Assembly: GCA_948470605.1 (NCBI GenBank)
Contig: CAOKPI010000002.1
Coordinates: 19,015 to 83,014, forward strand
DNA length: 64,000 nucleotides
Direction of reading: 5' to 3'
From: an uncultured Clostridium sp.
GTDB taxonomy: Bacteria; Bacillota; Clostridia; TANB77; CAG-508
Shown here one piece after another: positions 3,041 through 56,284 of the stretch. The notes beneath the pieces are model-generated. The model made no database searches and was not told where the DNA came from. It worked only from the letters and a program-made list of their open reading frames with translations. The stretch's first letter is position 1, and each line of letters starts with the position of its first letter. Made by a program: the position numbers and the translations under genes.

Positions 3041-3072
3041 TGAGACAATTAAGAGCTGTCCCTCTTGTCTCA
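3041..3072. repeat. solo TGAGACAA..TTGTCTCA hairpin of the CTGTCCC orientation; its last three nt are the SPFH stop codon on the minus strand
   Basis: The sequence is tgagacaattaagagctgtccctcttgtctca followed by TTTTTT. It belongs to the same family as the elements at 28981-29100 and 38295-38416. Confidence 0.6.
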
Positions 3073-3972
3073 TTTTTTATCATCTTTTACAATTTCCTTC
3101 ATGGCACCTAGTGAACTTAAAGCATTGGTTGCTTCAAAAGGAATAAATACTTTATTAGCATCGCCTTTAGCCACTTCTTCTAAAGCCTCTAAAGATTTTA
3201 GTTGAACTAGTTTATCATTTGGGTCTGCCTTTTTCATAGCATCATAAACCATTTGAATTTCTTTTGCTTTTGCATCAGCCACTTCTCTAATTGCCTGTGC
3301 TTCACCGGCAGCTCTTCTAATTCTAGCTTCTTTATCTGCTTCAGCCTCTAAAATAGCAGCTTGTTTTTTACCTTCAGCAATGGTAATTGCTGATTGTCTT
3401 TGGGCTTCTGATTCTAGAATCAAAGCTCTTTTATTTCTTTCGGCATTCATTTCTTTTTCCATGGCATCTCTAATATCAGCAGGTGGCGTAATATCTTTAA
3501 TTTCTACTCGGTCGATTTTACAACCCCATCGATCGGTTGCCTCATCAAGAACCACTCTTAATTGATTATTAATACCATCTCTTGAACTGAAAGTTTCATC
3601 TAAATCCATTTTACCGATAATATCACGAATCGTTGTAATTGCTAAGTATTCAATACCTTTCTTTAAACTTTGAATTTCATACACTGCTTTCGCAGGGTCT
3701 GTTATTTGGTAGAATACAACCGTATCAATTGTAATGGTAACATTATCTTTTGTAATAACGCCTTGAGGTGGAATGTCCATCGTTTGTTGTTTTAAACTAA
3801 CCACACTTCTTACATGGTCAAAAAATGGAATGATAATGGTAAGACCAGCATCTGCTACTTTGTAGAACTTACCTAACCTTTCAATAATATACACCTCAGA
3901 TTGTTTAACGATTTTGATAGACATAAATGCTATTACTAGAATAATAACAAGTAAAACTAATAAAAACCACAT
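3070..3972 (-). CDS. SPFH/band-7 (stomatin/prohibitin-like, QmcA/YqfA-type) membrane protein
   Basis: It has an N-terminal TM helix followed by an SPFH domain (IIERLGKFYKVADAGLTIIIPF..DTVVFYQITDPAKAVYEI). The C-terminal coiled coil is Ala/Glu/Lys-rich. Confidence 0.85.
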   Translation of the reverse strand: MWFLLVLLVIILVIAFMSIKIVKQSEVYIIERLGKFYKVADAGLTIIIPFFDHVRSVVSLKQQTMDIPPQGVITKDNVTITIDTVVFYQITDPAKAVYEIQSLKKGIEYLAITTIRDIIGKMDLDETFSSRDGINNQLRVVLDEATDRWGCKIDRVEIKDITPPADIRDAMEKEMNAERNKRALILESEAQRQSAITIAEGKKQAAILEAEADKEARIRRAAGEAQAIREVADAKAKEIQMVYDAMKKADPNDKLVQLKSLEALEEVAKGDANKVFIPFEATNALSSLGAMKEIVKDDKK

Positions 3973-4017
3973 AAATTTTCCTCCTTATCAAATTTATATC
4001 AAATTAATTATCTTCTG

Positions 4018-4455
4018 TTAATTTAGTTTTTGAAGGGGTGCAACAATTGCTTTGACACCTTTTATTTCCTTAATTTCTACTTCTGTACCTTGAGGAATAT
4101 TCATATCATCTAGTCCAATGGCAGACCAAATTTCTCCACCAACTTTCACTTGGCCAAGAGATTGAAGAGAATCAATGTCTTTTGTCACAATTCCTATTTT
4201 CCCAACCGTAGAATATACATTGGTTTGAATGGCATTTTTATTGTTGGCAAATTTTTTGACAAATGGTTTGGTTGCAAAAATTAAAATGGTGGAAGATATG
4301 ACGAACACAGAGGTTTGCATGATTATATTGTTAGTAAAGAAACTAACAACCATAGCTAATAAGGCTCCTATTGCAAACCAAAAAATTAGAAATCCTACTG
4401 TCATGATTTCAATGATTAGACAGATACCTGCTATAATTAACCAGATTTGCCACAT
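4018..4455 (-). CDS. NfeD-family membrane protein, the partner of the SPFH protein
   Basis: It has three N-terminal TM segments and a C-terminal OB-fold-like region (VGKIGIVTKDI..GQVKVGGEIWSA). It sits directly upstream of the SPFH gene in the same operon, which is the classic NfeD-SPFH arrangement. Confidence 0.75.
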   Translation of the reverse strand: MWQIWLIIAGICLIIEIMTVGFLIFWFAIGALLAMVVSFFTNNIIMQTSVFVISSTILIFATKPFVKKFANNKNAIQTNVYSTVGKIGIVTKDIDSLQSLGQVKVGGEIWSAIGLDDMNIPQGTEVEIKEIKGVKAIVAPLQKLN

Positions 4456-8832: not shown

Positions 8833-11283
8833 ATGACATATAAATTTACCAACAGAGCCAAAAAGGCAATCGAATTGGCAAACGAAGCAGCCATTGAATT
8901 AGGACACAACTATATAGGAACAGAACATGTTCTATATGGTCTAACAAAAGAAGGAAGCGGAGTGGCTTCCAAAGTATTAGGAAATCAAGAGGTGACACCA
9001 GATGGGGTAATTGATAAAATTGTAGAATTAATTGGACAAGAAGAGCCAATCACAGAAACTTTAGGTTTTACCCCAAGAACCAAGAGAGTCATTGAAAATG
9101 CTTTTATCGAAGCAAGAAAATTAGGCTATAACTATATTGGAACAGAACATTTATTAATCGGGATTTTAAGAGAAGGAGACTGTATTGCAGCCAGAATTTT
9201 ATTAGAACTAAATGTGAATATTCCAAGACTATACAATGAAATTGTCAAAGTCATCAATGAAGGGGAAGACTTACAAGGAGAAGAAAGAGACGGAAATGTC
9301 GAAAGAAAAACGGGAAGCTATAACCAAACCACTACTTTAAATCAATTTGGAGAAGACTTAACCAAAAAAGCAACAGAAGGCAAATTAGACCCTATCATAG
9401 GAAGAAAAGAAGAAATTGAAAGAGTCATTCAAATTTTATCTAGAAGAACCAAAAATAATCCTTGTCTCATTGGTGAGCCAGGTGTTGGAAAAACAGCAGT
9501 AGTAGAAGGATTGGCTCAAAAAATTATAGCAGGCGATGTGCCAGAAATTCTAAAAGACAAAAGAGTTGTTAGTATGGACATTTCAGGTATGGTAGCAGGA
9601 GCAAAATATAGAGGTGATTTTGAGGAAAGAATCAAAAAAGCATTGGCAGAAGTAAAAAAGGCAGGAGATATTATCTTATTTATTGATGAAATGCATACCA
9701 TTGTTGGGGCAGGAGCAGCAGAAGGAGCAATTGATGCCGCTAATATCTTAAAACCAATGTTAGCAAGAGGAGAAATTCAGCTAGTAGGAGCCACTACGTT
9801 AAATGAATATCGAAAATATATTGAAAAAGATGCTGCTTTAGAAAGAAGATTTAGTCCCGTTAATGTCAATGAGCCAAGTGAAAAAGATAGTATGCAAATA
9901 TTAAAAGGAATTCGAGATAAATACGAAGCTCATCATGGTGTAAAGATTACAGACGATGCCATTGAAGCAGCAGTAACGATGTCAGTTCGTTATATCAATG
10001 ATAGATTTTTACCAGACAAAGCCATTGATTTAATTGATGAGGCAGCATCAAAAGCAAAATTAAAAACTTTTACAGAGCCAGATAGTTTAAAGGAATTAGA
10101 AGAAAAAATAGAAGAAGCCCAGAAAGATAAAGAAGAAGCCGTTAGAACACAAAAATTTGAAAAGGCGGCAACTTTAAGAGACAAAGAAAAAGAATTAAAA
10201 GAAAAATATGAAAAAGAACAAAAGAAATGGAAAAATAAAAATACCAAACAAGTAACCGACATAGCAGAGGAAAACATAGCAGAGGTTATCAGCAATTGGA
10301 CAGGAATTCCAGCTAGCAAAATCACAGAAGATGAAAATGTTAGATTAAAAAACTTGGAAAAAAATCTACATGAAAGGGTAATTGGTCAAAATGAAGCAGT
10401 GGAAGCAGTAGCGAAAGCCATTCGTAGAGGAAGAGTTGGCTTAAAAGACCCGAAAAGACCAATCGGTTCCTTCCTATTTTTAGGACCAACAGGTGTGGGA
10501 AAAACGGAATTATCCAAAGCCTTAGCAGAAAGCTTATTTGGTGATGAAAATGCTATGATAAGAGTCGATATGTCAGAATTTATGGAACCACATTCGGTAT
10601 CCAAATTAATAGGTTCACCTCCTGGCTATGTTGGTTTTGATGAAGGCGGTCAATTAACCGAGAAAATAAGAAGAAAACCGTATTCTGTCATTCTATTTGA
10701 CGAAATAGAAAAAGCACATCCAGATGTCATGAATATGTTATTACAAATTTTAGAAGATGGACGTTTAACCGATAGTCAAGGAAGAACGGTAAACTTTAAA
10801 AATACAGTTATCATTATGACTTCTAATATTGGAGCTAGACTAATTACCGATAAAAAAGCATTAGGTTTTAGTCAAGTTAGAAGTGCAGAAGAAGATGCGA
10901 AAAAGGAATACGAAGAAACGAAAAGAGAAGTAATGGATACCTTAAAGAGAGAATTAAGACCAGAGTTTATTAATCGTATTGATGAGATTATTGTGTTCCA
11001 TAAGTTAACCGATACAGAAATTAGTGATATTATTGATATTATGCTAAAAGAGGTAACCAATCGATTGGCATTACAGAAGATAAAGATTGAACTAGAACCA
11101 GAAGTAAAAGAACTGATTGCTAGTAAAGGAATTGATAAAAATTTTGGAGCAAGACCTCTTAGAAGAACGATTCAAAGTTTGCTAGAGGATAAGTTGGCAG
11201 AGGAGATTTTGGATGGTAATTTGAAGAAGAATAAACTAGCTAAGGTTGGTGTAAAAGAAGAAAAAGTTGTTGTGAAAAAGTAA
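8833..11283 (+). CDS. clpC: ATP-dependent Clp protease ATP-binding subunit ClpC
   Basis: It has two N-terminal Clp-N repeats, two AAA+ modules (GEPGVGKTA and GPTGVGKTE), a UVR linker, and the sensor-2 motif GARPLRR. Confidence 0.95.
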   Translation: MTYKFTNRAKKAIELANEAAIELGHNYIGTEHVLYGLTKEGSGVASKVLGNQEVTPDGVIDKIVELIGQEEPITETLGFTPRTKRVIENAFIEARKLGYNYIGTEHLLIGILREGDCIAARILLELNVNIPRLYNEIVKVINEGEDLQGEERDGNVERKTGSYNQTTTLNQFGEDLTKKATEGKLDPIIGRKEEIERVIQILSRRTKNNPCLIGEPGVGKTAVVEGLAQKIIAGDVPEILKDKRVVSMDISGMVAGAKYRGDFEERIKKALAEVKKAGDIILFIDEMHTIVGAGAAEGAIDAANILKPMLARGEIQLVGATTLNEYRKYIEKDAALERRFSPVNVNEPSEKDSMQILKGIRDKYEAHHGVKITDDAIEAAVTMSVRYINDRFLPDKAIDLIDEAASKAKLKTFTEPDSLKELEEKIEEAQKDKEEAVRTQKFEKAATLRDKEKELKEKYEKEQKKWKNKNTKQVTDIAEENIAEVISNWTGIPASKITEDENVRLKNLEKNLHERVIGQNEAVEAVAKAIRRGRVGLKDPKRPIGSFLFLGPTGVGKTELSKALAESLFGDENAMIRVDMSEFMEPHSVSKLIGSPPGYVGFDEGGQLTEKIRRKPYSVILFDEIEKAHPDVMNMLLQILEDGRLTDSQGRTVNFKNTVIIMTSNIGARLITDKKALGFSQVRSAEEDAKKEYEETKREVMDTLKRELRPEFINRIDEIIVFHKLTDTEISDIIDIMLKEVTNRLALQKIKIELEPEVKELIASKGIDKNFGARPLRRTIQSLLEDKLAEEILDGNLKKNKLAKVGVKEEKVVVKK

Positions 11284-18578: not shown

Positions 18579-18652
18579 GATTCATCTCCTAAAAATTGAT
18601 AGTAGTATTATACCTAGATTTCTGATAATAGTCAATGTCAATTAACAGGTTT

Positions 18653-19043
18653 GTGACAAGAGGGGCGCCCTTTTTTGTCACACAAAATAATTCAAAAAAG
18701 GTTATTATGATTTTTTATTTGCAACTCCCAACATCACACAGTCTGTAAATTTTTAACAGACTGTAGTTCGTCGGTCCCCACGAATTGTTGCTTCATAAAA
18801 AATATAATAACCTTTGTGAGAAATAAAGGAAATGTGACAAGAGGGGAGTCCTTTTTTGTCACATAAAATAATTCAAAAAAGGTTATTATGATTTTTTATT
18901 TGCAACTCCCAACATCACACAGTCTGTAAATTTTTAACAGACTGTAGTTCGTTGGTCCCCGCGAATTGTTGCTTCATAAAAAATATAATAACCTTTGTGA
19001 GAAATAAAAGAAATGTGACAAAAAAGGGCGCCCCTCTTGTCAC
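18653..19043. repeat. tandem array of 2.15 copies of a 181-bp unit; each unit begins with a GTGACAA..GGGCGCCC..TTGTCAC hairpin and contains the ~110-bp core repeat
   Basis: Units start at 18653, 18834 and 19015, with about 95% identity between them. The terminal hairpin is inverted. The core matches the repeats at 25786-26007 (reverse complement) and 28104-28222. Confidence 0.8.
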
Positions 19044-19141
19044 AACCTATTAATTATGCACTTGCAAAAAAGACGAACTTATGATATAAAGGAAACAGAG
19101 AAAAGATAGAAAGAAAAACATCAGGAAAATGAGGTGAAAAA

Positions 19142-25785: not shown

Positions 25786-26007
25786 GTCCCCACTGGTTCC
25801 GGGTTTAAATGGGGATGCAATTGTAATTATATTTTAAATTAAAAGTTTATTCTATTTTTTATACAGTAACAATTCGGGGGGACCAGCAAGCGTACAGTCT
25901 GTTAAAGATTTACAGACTGTGCGATGCTGGGAGTTACAAATAAAAACTAGAATAAACTTTTTTATAAAAATTAATGCATCCCATTTAAACCCGGAACCAG
26001 TGGGGAC
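25786..26007. mobile_element. 222-bp MITE-like element with nested inverted repeats: an outer ~32-bp repeat GTCCCCACTGGTTCCGGGTTTAAATGGGGATG and an inner ~15-bp repeat, surrounding the conserved ~110-bp core in reverse orientation
   Basis: 25786-25820 is the reverse complement of 25973-26007. The core at 25861-25975 matches the reverse complement of 18706-18810. There is no ORF. Confidence 0.75.
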
Positions 26008-28071: not shown

Positions 28072-28103
28072 CTAATTAATAATTTTATAAAAGTTTATTA
28101 TAT

Positions 28104-28222
28104 TTTTATTTGTAACTCCCAACTGCATAACAGACTGTAAACAAAATTTCTAAAAATTTTGTACAGTCTATAATTTGTCGGTCCCCCCGAATTGTTACTA
28201 CATAAAAATATAATAAATTTTA
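28104..28222 (+). repeat. solo copy of the ~110-bp core repeat (variant with an extended central hairpin)
   Basis: The sequence is TTTATTTGTAACTCCCAAC..ACAGACTGT..ACAGTCT..GTCGGTCCCCCCGAATTGTTACTACATAAAAATATAATAA. Confidence 0.7.
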
Positions 28223-28364
28223 CAAAAAATATTACAAGTAATAAGATGAAAGGTTGGGGTATAAATTAAGAGGTTAAATTTTAATCCCAGCTTTTTGGAT
28301 TTTATGCTTTTTTATCATTAAAATGTATCTTAATGGATTGATACAAAAAACAAGGAGGAAAATT

Positions 28365-28970: not shown

Positions 28971-28980
28971 AAAGAAAAAT

Positions 28981-29100
28981 GAGACAAGAGGGACAGATTT
29001 CTTTTGTCTCATAAATTTGGATAGAAAAATGTCGAATAAAGAAAATGATAAAAAACGACAAAAAATGTGAGACAAAAGAAACCTGTCCCTATTGTCTCAA
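28981..29100. repeat. 120-bp MITE-like element made of two 32-nt TGAGACAA..GGGACAG../..CTGTCCC..TTGTCTCA hairpins in mutually inverted orientation around a conserved 56-nt spacer, directly upstream of clpX
   Basis: Hairpin A lies at 28981-29012 and hairpin B at 29069-29100. The copy at 38295-38416 has about 90% similarity. Confidence 0.75.
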
Positions 29101-38294: not shown

Positions 38295-38416
38295 ATGAGA
38301 CAATGGGGACAGGTTTGAATTGTCTCATAAATTAAGTAGAAAAATGTCAAAATAAGAAGAAGACACAAAAAGTGACAAAAAAAGTGAGACAATTGAAACC
38401 TGTCCCTATTGTCTCA
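38295..38416. repeat. second full copy of the 120-bp double-hairpin TGAGACAA element, between thyA and folA
   Basis: Hairpin A lies at 38295-38327 and hairpin B at 38385-38416. The spacer is about 85% identical to the copy at 28981-29100. Confidence 0.75.
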
Positions 38417-46081: not shown

Positions 46082-46113
46082 TCTGTGACAACAGGGGCGT
46101 CCCTTTTTGTCAC
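46082..46113. repeat. GTGACAA..GGGGCGTCCC..TTGTCAC hairpin, the same family as the 18653 array hairpins
   Basis: tgtgacaacaggggcgtccctttttgtcacat. Confidence 0.6.
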
Positions 46114-46282
46114 ATTCAAATTATTGATAAAAGGTTATTATAGTAAAAAAAAACAGAGAGAACTCTGTTTTTTATATTGTAGGAAAGTTCTCCTAGTAGG
46201 AGGGCTTTCTGTACAAGATAAATATGGGAATTTATAGAATTTCTTTGCGGTTGCCACCGCTTAGAAATTCTTAAATTCGTTT

Positions 46283-52350: not shown

Positions 52351-52364
52351 ATAAAATAAGATTG

Positions 52365-52425
52365 CTACACTGCAATGGTTTCATTTATTTGTGAGAAAGT
52401 AAAATGAAACCATTGTAGTGTAGTA
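52365..52425 (+). terminator. very long hairpin (22-bp stem, 1 mismatch) after the PAS gene; a terminator or structured RNA
   Basis: ctacactgcaatggtttcattt..aaatgaaaccattgtagtgtag. Confidence 0.5.
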
Positions 52426-52574: not shown

Positions 52575-53414
52575 TTGTTTTATTCAAATAATTTTAATCA
52601 TGAACTAAATCCAATCATTAAAAAACAAAAAGAGGAGGTGAATGCCATACCGAGAGTAGCAAGAAAAAATCATATAAGTCAATATTTTCATATTGTTGTT
52701 AAGGGAATAAATGCAGAATATATATTTAGAAAAAAAGAGTATATGGAAAAATATAAGAATTTATTGAAAAAGAATGCAAAGAATCATCAAATCAATATAC
52801 TTGCTTACTGTATTATGAATAATCATGCCCATATATTATTATATACAAAAGAAAAAACTGAAATGGCTAGTTTTATGCAAAAAACCAATACTAGCTATGC
52901 TAAATATTATAATTTTTATGAAGATAGAGAGGGATATGTTTTTAAAGGACGATATTATACACAAAATATTTTATCATTAAAACAATTATATAATTGTTTG
53001 GTTTATATCCATAAAAATCCAATAAAGGCAAATTTAGTAACCAAAATGGAAGATTATCCGTTTTCAAGTTATCACGAATTCTTTAAAGATAAAGAGATAA
53101 TAGATGAACAAAGTATAAAATTGTTAGAATTAAAATTAGATAATTATTATAATGATTTAATAAAAATACATAGAATGGAAGATATTACAGATATATTTGA
53201 TATAAAAGAATACATAGATGCCCAACAAATCTTAAGAGAATATGAAAATAATTACAAGCAACCAATTAAAAAATTGAAGGAACAAAACGAAATTTTAGAA
53301 AAGATAATTGTTGATTTAAATGAAAAGGCAGGAATGCCAATTAGAAAGATAGCAGAAAAGATAAGTGTTAATAAAAACAAAGTGAATAAAATTTTAAAAG
53401 AAAAAAGAAAATAG
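52575..53414 (+). CDS. Y1 HUH transposase-family protein (IS200/RAYT-like REP-associated tyrosine transposase) with a C-terminal HTH-like extension
   Basis: The HUH motif is NNHAHILL. The catalytic Tyr context is FKGRYYTQNI. The N-terminal FHIVVKG is typical of the Y1_Tnp fold. The gene is flanked by inverted GGGGACGTA[G/C]AT hairpins. Confidence 0.65.
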   Translation: MFYSNNFNHELNPIIKKQKEEVNAIPRVARKNHISQYFHIVVKGINAEYIFRKKEYMEKYKNLLKKNAKNHQINILAYCIMNNHAHILLYTKEKTEMASFMQKTNTSYAKYYNFYEDREGYVFKGRYYTQNILSLKQLYNCLVYIHKNPIKANLVTKMEDYPFSSYHEFFKDKEIIDEQSIKLLELKLDNYYNDLIKIHRMEDITDIFDIKEYIDAQQILREYENNYKQPIKKLKEQNEILEKIIVDLNEKAGMPIRKIAEKISVNKNKVNKILKEKRK

Positions 53415-53448
53415 GGGACAAAATGTACGTCCCCATGTCCTCCATGTC
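53414..53448. repeat. REP-like hairpin GGGGACAAAATGTACGTCCCC plus ATGTCC repeats between the transposase stop and the mgtA stop
   Basis: The reverse-complement core is GGGGACGTACAT, inverted relative to the copy at 51877-51904. Confidence 0.65.
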
Positions 53449-56252: not shown

Positions 56253-56284
56253 TGAGACAATGGGGACAGGTATTAGTTGTCTCA
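56253..56284. repeat. solo TGAGACAATGGGGACAGG..TTGTCTCA hairpin (A orientation) 27 nt upstream of the aminopeptidase start
   Basis: It is near-identical to hairpin A at 38295-38327. Confidence 0.7.

What the first reader, a model, noticed from the sequence alone, without database searches (positions are those of the whole stretch)
28981..29100. A 120-bp double-hairpin TGAGACAA element lies immediately upstream of clpX and of folA, with solo hairpins before an aminopeptidase and at the alr/SPFH junction
Two full copies (28981-29100 and 38295-38416) each consist of hairpin A (TGAGACAA-tGGGGACAGGtttgaa-TTGTCTCA), a conserved ~56-nt spacer, and hairpin B, which is the same stem with the loop reverse-complemented (..CCTGTCCC..). 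B ends 20-22 nt before the start codon and overlaps the RBS region. Solo A lies at 56253-56284, 27 nt before the M29 aminopeptidase. A solo B-like copy at 3041-3072 supplies the SPFH stop codon. The architecture is that of a terminal-inverted-repeat MITE whose repeats are themselves hairpins. Its repeated placement in 5' UTRs of proteostasis and folate genes also allows for a cis-regulatory RNA or operator role: the outer stems form a 9-bp palindrome with 14-16-nt spacing. I do not recognise it as a known riboswitch or named repeat.
Basis: seen in the sequence. Interest (0 to 1): 0.6.

Follow-up and report, generated by a model that had tools for sequence, protein, structure and literature searches.

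The report
REP-like mobile hairpin repeats, not riboswitch
The 120-bp double hairpins before clpX and folA are copies of a small mobile palindromic DNA repeat that relatives show to be tied to a RAYT-type tyrosine transposase; they were recently inserted between genes and are not a conserved regulatory RNA or operator.

Summary
Six TGAGACAA-N16-TTGTCTCA hairpins lie in the window, where shuffles give none. They form two 120/121-bp doublets (28980-29099, 38296-38416) and two solo copies (3041-3072, 56253-56284).

They are not a conserved leader RNA.
- Close relatives have empty clpP-clpX and thyA-folA junctions.
- Downstream genes in other genomes are functionally unrelated.
- Rfam gives only spurious long-hairpin hits.

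In related low-GC gut Clostridia, the same hairpin pair with the same sub-terminal motifs (TGTCG / CGACA) flanks a single ~250-aa Y1 (HUH) transposase with a C-terminal HTH. That gene sits in a conserved recD2-comFC slot and is closest to E. coli TnpA_REP (RAYT). The loop core GGGGACAG fits the published TIR motif GGGGWSAS of "TIRYT/TIRtron" elements.

The 120-bp unit is therefore an internally deleted, REPIN-like derivative. Its two arms covary, and the whole unit folds into one ~31-bp hairpin.

Copies cluster at cistron boundaries. The hairpin's TGA often serves as the stop codon, and the other arm abuts the next ribosome-binding site. I attribute this mostly to selection in compact genomes.

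Nearly the same hairpin is abundant in Atopobiaceae (Actinomycetota).

Verdict: new member of a known kind; moderate interest.

The parts
28980..29099 (+). Full 120-bp element between clpP and clpX: arm A 28980-29011, spacer 29012-29067, arm B 29068-29099
   Evidence: Folds as one long A:B hairpin, -49.5 kcal/mol, z -11.2. The site is empty in relatives L124-L133 and L158. It is filled, in the same orientation, in L001-L005 and L079.
29030..29034 (+). Sub-terminal motif TGTCG(AA), 18 nt inside arm A
   Evidence: Conserved in 15 aligned short elements. Present at the same place next to the transposase-carrying units in L083, L033 and L208.
29056..29067 (+). Sub-terminal motif CGACAAAAAATG directly inside arm B
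   Evidence: Conserved in the aligned short elements. Also found just upstream of arm B of the transposase units in L083, L204 and L208.
38296..38416 (+). Full 121-bp element between thyA and folA: arm A 38296-38327, spacer 38328-38384, arm B 38385-38416
   Evidence: Long hairpin -55.9 kcal/mol, z -10.7. The site is empty in L210/L211 (ThyA 95% identical, 47-nt spacer), L212 (18 nt) and L214 (13 nt).
56253..56284 (+). Solo hairpin (GGGGACAG loop on + strand), 26 nt upstream of the M29 aminopeptidase start
   Evidence: Followed by TAAATT like the A arms of the full elements.
3041..3072 (-). Solo hairpin. Read on the - strand it has the GGGACAG loop, and its TGA is the stop codon of the SPFH gene (3070-3972, -)
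52638..53414 (+). RAYT-family Y1 transposase gene (Y1_Tnp plus C-terminal HTH). It is a paralogue, 45-47% identical over its N-terminal ~140 residues to the hairpin-flanked transposases of relatives, and is not itself flanked by TGAGACAA hairpins.
   Evidence: tblastn. Pfam and NCBIfam. The identical protein P0241 is called from TTG 52575, but orthologues P0242-P0244 start MNFIARVARK, which favours GTG 52638. Whether it acts on these hairpins is unknown.

Best explanation
The TGAGACAA hairpin is a repetitive extragenic palindrome of the REP/TIR type.

The 120-bp double hairpin is a REPIN-like, non-autonomous mobile element. It is an internally deleted copy of a 'TIRtron', in which the same two inverted hairpins flank a single-copy RAYT/TIRYT-class Y1 (HUH) tyrosine transposase.

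The likely mechanism is inferred from the IS200/IS605-RAYT family. In single-stranded DNA the arms fold, either each on itself or A against B as one ~31-bp hairpin. The transposase recognises the hairpin with its GGGGACAG core and the nearby TGTCG/CGACA motifs, then cuts and rejoins one strand. This spreads copies in trans.

The clpX and folA copies are recent insertions into the few bases between a stop codon and the next ribosome-binding site. They are co-transcribed with their operons.

I attribute their exact placement and common orientation mainly to purifying selection in a compact genome:
- Only insertions at cistron boundaries survive.
- The element's terminal TGA gives an immediate stop.
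- Only the orientation that does not put the hairpin-plus-U-tract (terminator-like) side on the sense strand is tolerated inside operons.

Any effect on clpX or folA expression would be a by-product or a secondary co-option. Candidates are the long duplex acting as an RNase III or stability element, or altered translational coupling. Such an effect is not the reason the sequence is there.
For: Shown:
1. Six copies in 64 kb, none expected by chance.
2. The same hairpin is multi-copy in many species of two clades. One Clostridia MAG gave at least 5 stretches and Tractidigestivibacter montrealensis at least 10.
3. In L033, L083, L204 and L208 the hairpin pair flanks a ~250-aa Pfam Y1_Tnp protein. 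The sub-terminal motifs match the 120-bp element: A-N17-19-TGTCG ... CGACAaaa-B.
4. That protein has invariant HUH (NHxH) and YIHxNP motifs plus a C-terminal HTH. It scores 67-76 bits on NCBIfam REP_Tyr_transpos against 17-24 bits on IS200. Its best solved relative is E. coli TnpA_REP 4ER8 (E 2.4e-5), against 0.14 for ISDra2 TnpA.
5. It occupies the same recD2-[gene]-comFC slot in six species.
6. The loop GGGGACAG fits the GGGGWSAS TIR motif published for TIRYT/TIRtron elements and TnpA_REP subclass 2.1 with C-terminal HTH (PMC3733652, PMC6006769).
7. Orthologous sites are empty in close relatives, and in the reverse direction filled in relatives but empty here.
8. The whole element folds into one A:B hairpin. 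The arms covary across 15 elements: 96.7% of cells paired, 9 pairs changed on both sides, 0 of 500 shuffles as high.
9. No sigma-70-like promoter lies inside the element. The reverse complement of B plus its T-run is terminator-like on the antisense strand.

Inferred: the transposition chemistry, the selection-based origin of the position and orientation bias, and any effect on expression.
Against: - No hairpin-flanked transposase has been seen in the window's own genome. The recD2-comFC locus is not in the window. The one RAYT-family gene present (52638-53414) is a 45-47% identical paralogue without these hairpins at its ends.
- The proteins fall just below NCBIfam's RAYT cut-off (67-76 bits against 80).
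- The hairpins lack the GTAG tag of classical REPs.
- Copy number per complete genome was not measured.
- The position bias is very strong. The hairpin's TGA closes an ORF of at least 80 codons in about 20 of 69 low-GC hairpins and 51 of 99 high-GC hairpins, against 1.2% and 13.6% of all TGAs. B-type arms precede a ribosome-binding site 14:2. A host function or a targeted insertion mechanism could contribute to this.
- No transposition event was observed directly.
Confidence: 0.85

Rival explanations
1. A cis-regulatory RNA (riboswitch or leader) in the 5' UTRs of clpX, folA and the M29 peptidase, sensing a common signal.
For: The hairpins lie immediately upstream of ribosome-binding sites. 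The predicted structure is strong. The A:B pairing covaries.
Against: - The element is absent from the same junctions in close relatives.
- Downstream genes elsewhere are unrelated: KAP NTPase, RmlC, M48 peptidase, PurD, AccC, pentapeptide protein, radical SAM, DUF951, SufBD, RelA.
- Stems and the GGGACAG core are conserved as sequence, while the inner stem GGGAC/GTCC is lost without compensation in this lineage.
- Rfam gives no gathering hit, and only plant miRNA-hairpin noise at E-value level.
- The ribosome-binding site is not sequestered.
- Copies also occur at gene 3' ends and around a transposase gene.
Confidence: 0.03
2. An operator for a DNA-binding regulator (8-bp inverted half-sites TGAGACAA/TTGTCTCA, 16 bp apart) that defines a regulon.
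For: Perfect palindromic half-sites, repeated GRGACAR motifs and proximity to gene starts.
Against: - There are too many copies, many of them at 3' ends or overlapping stop codons.
- The associated genes have no functional coherence.
- Presence and absence differ among close relatives.
- No promoter-like sites overlap the element.
- The only protein consistently linked to the hairpins is a Y1 transposase.
Confidence: 0.03
3. An invertible promoter switch (inverton): the 32-bp inverted repeats are recombinase sites that flip the 56-bp spacer.
For: Inverted repeats flank a short segment just upstream of genes in a gut bacterium. The same repeat occurs at several loci, as with master invertases.
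Against: - The spacer has no promoter-like site.
- All six independent assemblies of the clpX copy have the same orientation.
- In 12-13 of 15 species-level copies the spacer has the same orientation relative to the flanking genes.
- The repeats flank a Y1 transposase, and no invertase association was seen.
Confidence: 0.02
4. An ordinary MITE derived from a DDE-type insertion sequence (TG...CA ends) and mobilised by that IS, with the Y1 gene being a passenger.
For: The ends are TG...CA. The size, the TIRs and the presence/absence polymorphism are MITE-like.
Against: - No target-site duplication and no consistent flanking target are visible in about 50 copies.
- The only coding sequence found between the repeats with matching sub-terminal motifs is a Y1 HUH transposase, in a syntenic single slot in six species.
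- The core motif matches the published TIRYT TIR consensus.
Confidence: 0.05
5. The repeats are maintained because the host uses them as intercistronic punctuation: stop codon donor, 3' stabiliser or terminator in one orientation, processing stem in the other. Transposase-driven spread is only their origin.
For: - Strong enrichment at stop codons and next to ribosome-binding sites, with strong polarity: 19:3 and 14:2.
- In the low-GC clade, 42 of 74 readings in the GGGACAG sense are followed by a T-run, against 22 of 74 in the other sense.
- The two anti-oriented short elements sit 103-219 nt from the next start, whereas 10 of 13 co-oriented ones sit within 26 nt.
Against: - The same pattern is expected from purifying selection alone in compact operons.
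- T-runs are rare after the Atopobiaceae palindromes (11 of 197 readings).
- Relatives do without the element at the same junctions.
- No expression data exist.
Confidence: 0.25

Closest known systems
REPIN-RAYT systems (REP doublets forming hairpins with a single-copy REP-associated tyrosine transposase; Pseudomonas, E. coli BIMEs)
   Same: - A short palindromic repeat occurs as solo copies and as inverted doublets that fold into one long hairpin, with covarying arms.
- The transposase is a Y1 HUH enzyme closest to TnpA_REP and is flanked by the repeats.
- The transposase gene is syntenic across species.
- Copies are extragenic and mostly just downstream of genes.
   Different: - No GTAG tag.
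- The transposase carries a C-terminal HTH and falls just under NCBIfam's RAYT cut-off.
- The hosts are low-GC Clostridia and Atopobiaceae rather than Gammaproteobacteria.
- Published surveys link abundant repeats mainly to RAYT groups 2 and 3 (PMC5581495).
TIRtrons / TIRYT (Di Nocera et al. 2013, PMC3733652), equivalent to TnpA_REP subclass 2.1 with C-terminal HTH (Quentin et al. 2018, PMC6006769)
   Same: - A RAYT-like gene with a C-terminal HTH is flanked by long inverted repeats sharing GGGGWSAS; here the core is GGGGACAG.
- Some published TIRs are self-complementary and form moderately abundant dimeric repeat families.
   Different: - This particular TIR sequence and these hosts are not named in the text I searched; their figures and supplements were not checked.
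- Here the TIR is a complete hairpin with an invariant 8-bp outer stem.
- Quentin et al. found no REP-like sequences near subclass 2.1 genes, whereas here they are evident.
Correia elements (NEMIS/CREE) of Neisseria
   Same: Intergenic elements of about 100-150 bp with TIRs, co-transcribed with neighbouring genes and folding into long duplexes that can be RNase III substrates. (This rests on my own knowledge of that literature.)
   Different: Correia elements have TA target duplication, carry promoter and IHF sites, and have no known Y1 transposase. None of these features was seen here.
IS200/IS605 elements and their palindrome-associated miniature derivatives
   Same: A Y1 HUH transposase acting on sub-terminal hairpins, with no target duplication and an orientation bias.
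   Different: - IS200/IS605 ends are not inverted repeats of each other.
- The proteins here score far better on RAYT than on IS200 models.

Membership tests
REP/REPIN-RAYT system | Short palindromic repeat present in many extragenic copies per genome | tested here: inconclusive
   There are 6 copies in 64 kb against 0 expected, and several 8-kb stretches per genome in a truncated scan. No complete genome could be counted.
REP/REPIN-RAYT system | Inverted doublets that fold into one long hairpin (REPIN) | tested here: met
   Minimum-free-energy structures pair A with B over about 31 bp. The arms covary in 15 elements.
REP/REPIN-RAYT system | Transposase gene flanked by the repeats in inverted orientation | tested here: met
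   Seen in L033, L083, L204 and L208. Not seen in the window's own genome, because that locus lies outside the window.
REP/REPIN-RAYT system | Y1 HUH fold with HUH and catalytic Tyr motifs, closer to TnpA_REP than to IS200 TnpA | tested here: met
   NHxH and YIHxNP are invariant. NCBIfam REP_Tyr_transpos gives 67-76 bits (cut-off 80) against 17-24 bits for IS200. PDB 4ER8 matches at E 2.4e-5 against 0.14 for 2XM3.
REP/REPIN-RAYT system | Single-copy, vertically inherited transposase gene | tested here: inconclusive
   The gene sits in the same recD2-comFC slot in six species. Copy number per genome and tree congruence were not tested.
REP/REPIN-RAYT system | GTAG (or CGTC) tag at one foot of the palindrome | tested here: not met
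   The flanks of about 170 copies show no GTAG or CGTC tag. Conserved TGTCG/CGACA motifs lie 7-19 nt inside the arms instead.
TIRtron / TIRYT (TnpA_REP subclass 2.1) | RAYT-like protein with a C-terminal HTH extension | tested here: met
   The proteins are about 250 aa, with weak HTH_7/HTH_23/HTH_24 matches at the C-terminus and a conserved ISRAxLYR segment.
TIRtron / TIRYT (TnpA_REP subclass 2.1) | Flanking inverted repeats containing GGGGWSAS | tested here: met
   GGGGACAG is at 38305-38312 and 56262-56269. The other four window copies have AGGGACAG. The motif definition comes from PMC3733652 and PMC6006769.
DDE-type MITE | Target-site duplication and TIRs shared with a DDE insertion sequence | tested here: not met
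   No duplication or common target is visible in the flanks. No DDE IS with these ends was met in the loci.
Riboswitch / conserved leader RNA | Conserved at orthologous 5' UTRs, coherent downstream genes, structure-preserving covariation at orthologous sites | tested here: not met
   Orthologous sites are empty. Downstream genes are unrelated. Rfam gives nothing.
Invertible promoter (inverton) | Both orientations present in populations, with a promoter inside | tested here: not met
   All 6 assemblies have the same orientation. No promoter-like site lies inside. Read-level data were not available.

The most novel reading that the evidence does not exclude
A RAYT-REPIN system of the HTH-bearing (TIRYT / group-1-like) class, so far thought to be poor in repeats, has built sizeable repeat populations in two unrelated gut lineages: low-GC Clostridia and high-GC Atopobiaceae. 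They use an almost identical hairpin, for example TGAGACAAAGGGGACAGGTTCATTTGTCTCA in Olsenella against TGAGACAATGGGGACAGGTTTGAATTGTCTCA here. This implies either inter-phylum transfer of a system described as vertically inherited, or an unusually constrained recognition sequence. Its copies would have been co-opted as cistron-boundary punctuation: stop-codon donor, orientation-dependent terminator, and processing stem next to ribosome-binding sites.
Probability: 0.25. Interest if true: 0.6.

Novelty: new member of a known kind. Interest (0 to 1): 0.35.

Why it matters
- **Annotation.** It removes a false lead: there is no new riboswitch or proteostasis/folate regulon here.
- **Taxonomic reach.** It adds a clear REP/REPIN-like family, with its transposase, in uncultured gut Clostridia and in Atopobiaceae. 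REPIN-RAYT biology has been worked out almost entirely in Proteobacteria.
- **Class of transposase.** For the HTH-bearing RAYT class, published surveys found few or no associated repeats.
- **Practical use.** These repeats break assemblies, create presence/absence markers between close species, alter gene ends by donating stop codons or short C-terminal tails, and may change operon expression.
- **Open question.** The near-identity of the hairpin across two phyla gives a concrete test case for horizontal transfer of such systems.

Tried and rejected
- **Rfam.** At gathering thresholds the whole window gave nothing. At E-value level the two repeat regions gave only plant miRNA-precursor and similar chance matches caused by long hairpins.
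- **tRNA/tmRNA scan.** None found.
- **Literature search** for the exact hairpin strings found no relevant paper.
- **Single-sequence search of the transposase against PDB** gave no hit. Only the profile search worked.
- **Promoter scan.** No sigma-70-like site lies inside either element or before the M29 gene. My hand-found weak -35/-10 candidates (GGGACA-N16-TAAATT) were dropped.
- **Target motif or target-site duplication.** I inspected the flanks of about 50 low-GC copies and found no consensus. An AAAATAGAAA repeat on both sides of the clpX copy is probably purine-rich chance.
- **TA-target hypothesis.** The idea that insertion into the TA of TAA stop codons explains the TGA stops was rejected, because the base after the hairpin is often C or T.
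- **Look-up of the window's RAYT paralogue from GTG 52638.** Not on record, because the collection calls it from TTG 52575.
- **recD2/comFC in the window.** tblastn found neither, so the expected home of the cognate transposase lies outside the window.
- **80 ClpX loci from more distant Firmicutes** (403 kb) contain no such hairpin.

Full report
**1. What is in the window**

The pattern TGAGACAA-N(10-20)-TTGTCTCA occurs six times: 3041-3072, 28980-29011, 29068-29099, 38296-38327, 38385-38416 and 56253-56284. It never occurred in 100 dinucleotide-preserving shuffles (sequences).

Two pairs form 120- and 121-bp units (28980-29099 and 38296-38416). In each, the right hairpin (B, loop CTGTCCC) is the reverse complement of the left one (A, loop GGGACAG). 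A conserved A-rich spacer lies between them.

The coordinates given were one base off. B abuts the ribosome-binding site rather than overlapping it. The window is about 30% G+C. It matches metagenome contigs of an uncultured gut bacterium.

**2. The hairpin is a widespread repeat**

I scanned one genome per species for TGAGACAA-N(1-4)-GGGACAG-N(5-9)-TTGTCTCA. The hits fall into two clades.
- Low-GC MAGs labelled uncultured Clostridium or Clostridia, including Clostridium sp. CAG:452, carry 31-34-nt hairpins like those here.
- High-GC Atopobiaceae (Olsenella, Tractidigestivibacter, Parolsenella) mostly carry an invariant 29-nt perfect palindrome, TGAGACAAAGGGACAGTCCCTTTGTCTCA. They also carry inverted doublets of TGAGACAAAGGGGACAGGTTCATTTGTCTCA.

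Several stretches come from the same genome: at least 10 in T. montrealensis and at least 5 in one Clostridia MAG. Isolated hits occur in Solirubrobacteraceae, Salipaludibacillus and a Lachnospiraceae MAG.

**3. Link to a transposase**

In the low-GC loci, A...B pairs flank either a 50-75-bp spacer (15 short elements, 116-139 bp overall) or a gene.

In L033 and L083 the enclosed gene is a 246-253-aa protein with a Pfam Y1_Tnp (IS200-like) domain. L096 has the same gene with a hairpin at its stop codon. The window (52638-53414) and two Atopobiaceae loci hold more distant homologues.

The gene-carrying units have the same sub-terminal motifs as the 120-bp element: A, 17-19 nt, TGTCG ... CGACAaaaa, then B. 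The short element therefore looks like an internally deleted copy.

The proteins have these properties:
- Invariant NHxH (HUH) and YIHxNP (catalytic tyrosine) motifs and a C-terminal helix-turn-helix.
- 67-76 bits on NCBIfam 'REP-associated tyrosine transposase' (cut-off 80), against 17-24 bits on IS200.
- As a profile, the best solved relative is E. coli TnpA_REP (4ER8, E 2.4e-5), far ahead of ISDra2 TnpA.
- A family of more than 500 such proteins exists in metagenomes.

In three further species the gene lies in the same slot between recD2 (yrrC) and a comFC-like phosphoribosyltransferase. Hairpin A overlaps the recD2 3' end and hairpin B overlaps the comFC 5' end. Sequence after B in L033 and L083 also encodes the comFC CGICG motif. 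A single syntenic gene flanked by its repeats is the signature of RAYT-type systems.

**4. What is known**

Di Nocera et al. (PMC3733652) described 'TIRtrons'. These are RAYT-like genes ('TIRYT') flanked by long inverted repeats that share GGGGWSAS. Some are self-complementary and form moderately abundant dimeric repeat families.

Quentin et al. (PMC6006769) equate these with TnpA_REP subclass 2.1, which carries a C-terminal HTH, and quote the motif GGGG[AT][CG]A[CG].

The loop here, GGGGACAG, fits exactly at 38305 and 56262. The other copies have AGGGACAG.

Bertels et al. (PMC5581495) report that abundant flanking repeats go mainly with RAYT groups 2 and 3, and that group 1 also occurs in Clostridia.

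I found no paper containing this hairpin sequence.

**5. Mobility**

*clpP-clpX junction.* Relatives with 72-84% identical ClpX have only 3-30 nt including the ribosome-binding site, or an unrelated AT-rich spacer. They have no element. The element is present only in the window, in five contigs of the same species, and in L079 (about 91% DNA identity).

*thyA-folA junction.* L210/L211 are syntenic, with ThyA 95% identical and DNA 84-90% identical. Their spacer is 47 nt with no element. L212 has 18 nt and L214 has 13 nt.

*Reverse cases.* L107 and L055 carry a hairpin at the 3' ends of genes whose orthologues in the window (ending at 11283 and 53449) have none.

These are insertion polymorphisms between close species.

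**6. Why it is not a leader RNA, operator or inverton**

- Genes that follow a ribosome-binding-site-adjacent hairpin in other genomes are unrelated: KAP NTPase, RmlC, M48 peptidase, PurD, AccC, pentapeptide protein, radical SAM, DUF951, SufBD and RelA.
- The conserved parts are sequence (outer stem and GGGACAG). The inner GGGAC/GTCC stem seen in most species is lost without compensation in this lineage.
- Rfam gives nothing meaningful.
- The ribosome-binding sites stay unpaired in the predicted folds.
- There is no promoter-like site in the element.
- All six assemblies of the clpX copy have the same spacer orientation.

The A:B arms do covary across 15 elements: 96.7% of cells paired, 9 pairs changed on both sides, 0 of 500 shuffles as high. 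But these are paralogous copies at different loci. Matched arms are the expected property of a REPIN-type DNA hairpin.

**7. Placement and orientation**

*Stop codons.* The hairpin's terminal TGA closes an ORF of at least 80 codons in 22 of 69 low-GC hairpins; at least one of these is an antisense artefact. The figure is 51 of 99 for high-GC hairpins. The controls are 1.2% and 13.6% of all TGAs. The GGGACAG loop is in the sense of that gene 19:3.

*Ribosome-binding sites.* The CTGTCCC sense precedes a ribosome-binding site 14:2.

*Orientation.* Of 15 short elements, 12-13 have the same spacer orientation relative to the flanking genes. By my arithmetic the one-sided binomial P is about 0.004 for 13 of 15. 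Ten of these have B within 26 nt of the next start. The two oppositely oriented elements sit 103-219 nt from the next start.

*Terminator-like side.* The reverse complement of B followed by CATTTTTTG is terminator-like. In the low-GC clade, T-runs follow 42 of 74 GGGACAG-sense readings against 22 of 74 in the other sense.

My reading is an inference. In compact operons only insertions between a stop codon and the next ribosome-binding site survive, or insertions into the last codons in the frame that reads the element's TGA. Other frames give short C-terminal tails, as at recD2. Inside operons, only the non-terminating orientation survives. Strand-specific single-strand transposition may add to the bias. 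I found no target motif or target duplication.

**8. Consequences for clpX and folA (inferred, not shown)**

Both elements are transcribed within their operons. They can form either two local hairpins or one duplex of about 31 bp (-49.5 and -55.9 kcal/mol).

Such a duplex is a plausible RNase III or stability determinant and could change translational coupling. However, relatives lack the element, so it is not required for expression of these genes.

**9. Limits**

- The cognate hairpin-flanked transposase was not seen in this genome. The recD2-comFC locus is outside the window. The RAYT-family gene in the window is a paralogue without these hairpins.
- Copy number per genome, single-copy status, and the direction or reality of transfer between Clostridia and Atopobiaceae were not tested.

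Noticed in passing
window 18652-18682, 18833-18863, 19014-19044, 46084-46114; also L079 6210-6240 and L210 2164-2194: A second hairpin family, TGTGACAA-N15-TTGTCACA, with loop GAGGGGCGCCCTTTT. The outer stem is one base different from the TGAGACAA family. Three copies, the third inverted, bracket two 181-bp tandem units upstream of a PP2C phosphatase gene. This may be the repeat of another RAYT, possibly the window's paralogue at 52638-53414.
   Followed up: partly
window 28085-28225; copies within 18690-18830 and 18871-19010, and 25842-25964 (-); L007 4938-5057: A 141-bp element between tig and clpP with a 20-bp terminal stem and internal hairpins (RNA fold -36.2 kcal/mol, z -8.3). It is multi-copy, with no Rfam match. 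L079 (about 91% identical genome) keeps only its last ~35 bp, so it is another mobile or decaying MITE-like repeat in the same operon region.
   Followed up: partly
L208 ~9680, L204 ~9655, L083 ~4110, L033 ~6405, L206 ~9610 (recD2 3' part): In five species the recD2 (yrrC) reading frame breaks at the same place. It reads HKAQRK then TGA in one frame, and the conserved GSEFDVV...TRAKK... helicase end continues in the +1 frame (DNA CAYAAAGCACARCGGAAGYGAR). This is a conserved apparent +1 frameshift or split gene, right next to the transposase slot.
   Followed up: partly
window 52575-52650: The start of the RAYT-family gene is ambiguous. The collection calls it from TTG 52575 (279 aa). Orthologues begin MNFIARVARK, which points to GTG 52638, overlapping the AGGAGG. 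The nearby ATG 52642 is out of frame.
   Followed up: partly
window 53415-53447: The hairpin GGGGACaaaatgtacGTCCCC lies between the convergent RAYT-family gene and the P-type ATPase gene. At the orthologous ATPase 3' end, L055 carries a full TGAGACAA hairpin instead. This may be a degenerate relative of the repeat or simply a shared terminator.
   Followed up: partly
Atopobiaceae loci, e.g. L038 2769, L040 7149, L072 6707, L121 3017: Many 29-nt palindromes are flanked by partial copies of themselves (e.g. TGAGACAAAG[TGAGACAAAGGGACAGTCCCTTTGTCTCA]...CCTTTGTCT). This looks like insertion of one palindrome into another. L090 and L046 show similar nesting in the low-GC clade.
   Followed up: no
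L034 ~3990-4020 (shown on - strand): The Atopobiaceae RAYT homologue in L034 is preceded by a variant palindrome, TGATACGAAGGGACTGTCCCTTCGTATCA. It has the same GGGAC/GTCCC core and TGA...TCA ends but a different stem. In L206 the stems also differ while GGGGACA is kept. This suggests the core is the recognised part.
   Followed up: no
window 52362-52425: A very long perfect hairpin (about 22 bp stem: CTACACTGCAATGGTTTCATTT...AAATGAAACCATTGTAGTGTAG) lies after the PAS-domain gene and upstream of the RAYT-family gene. It is probably a terminator and was not examined.
   Followed up: no
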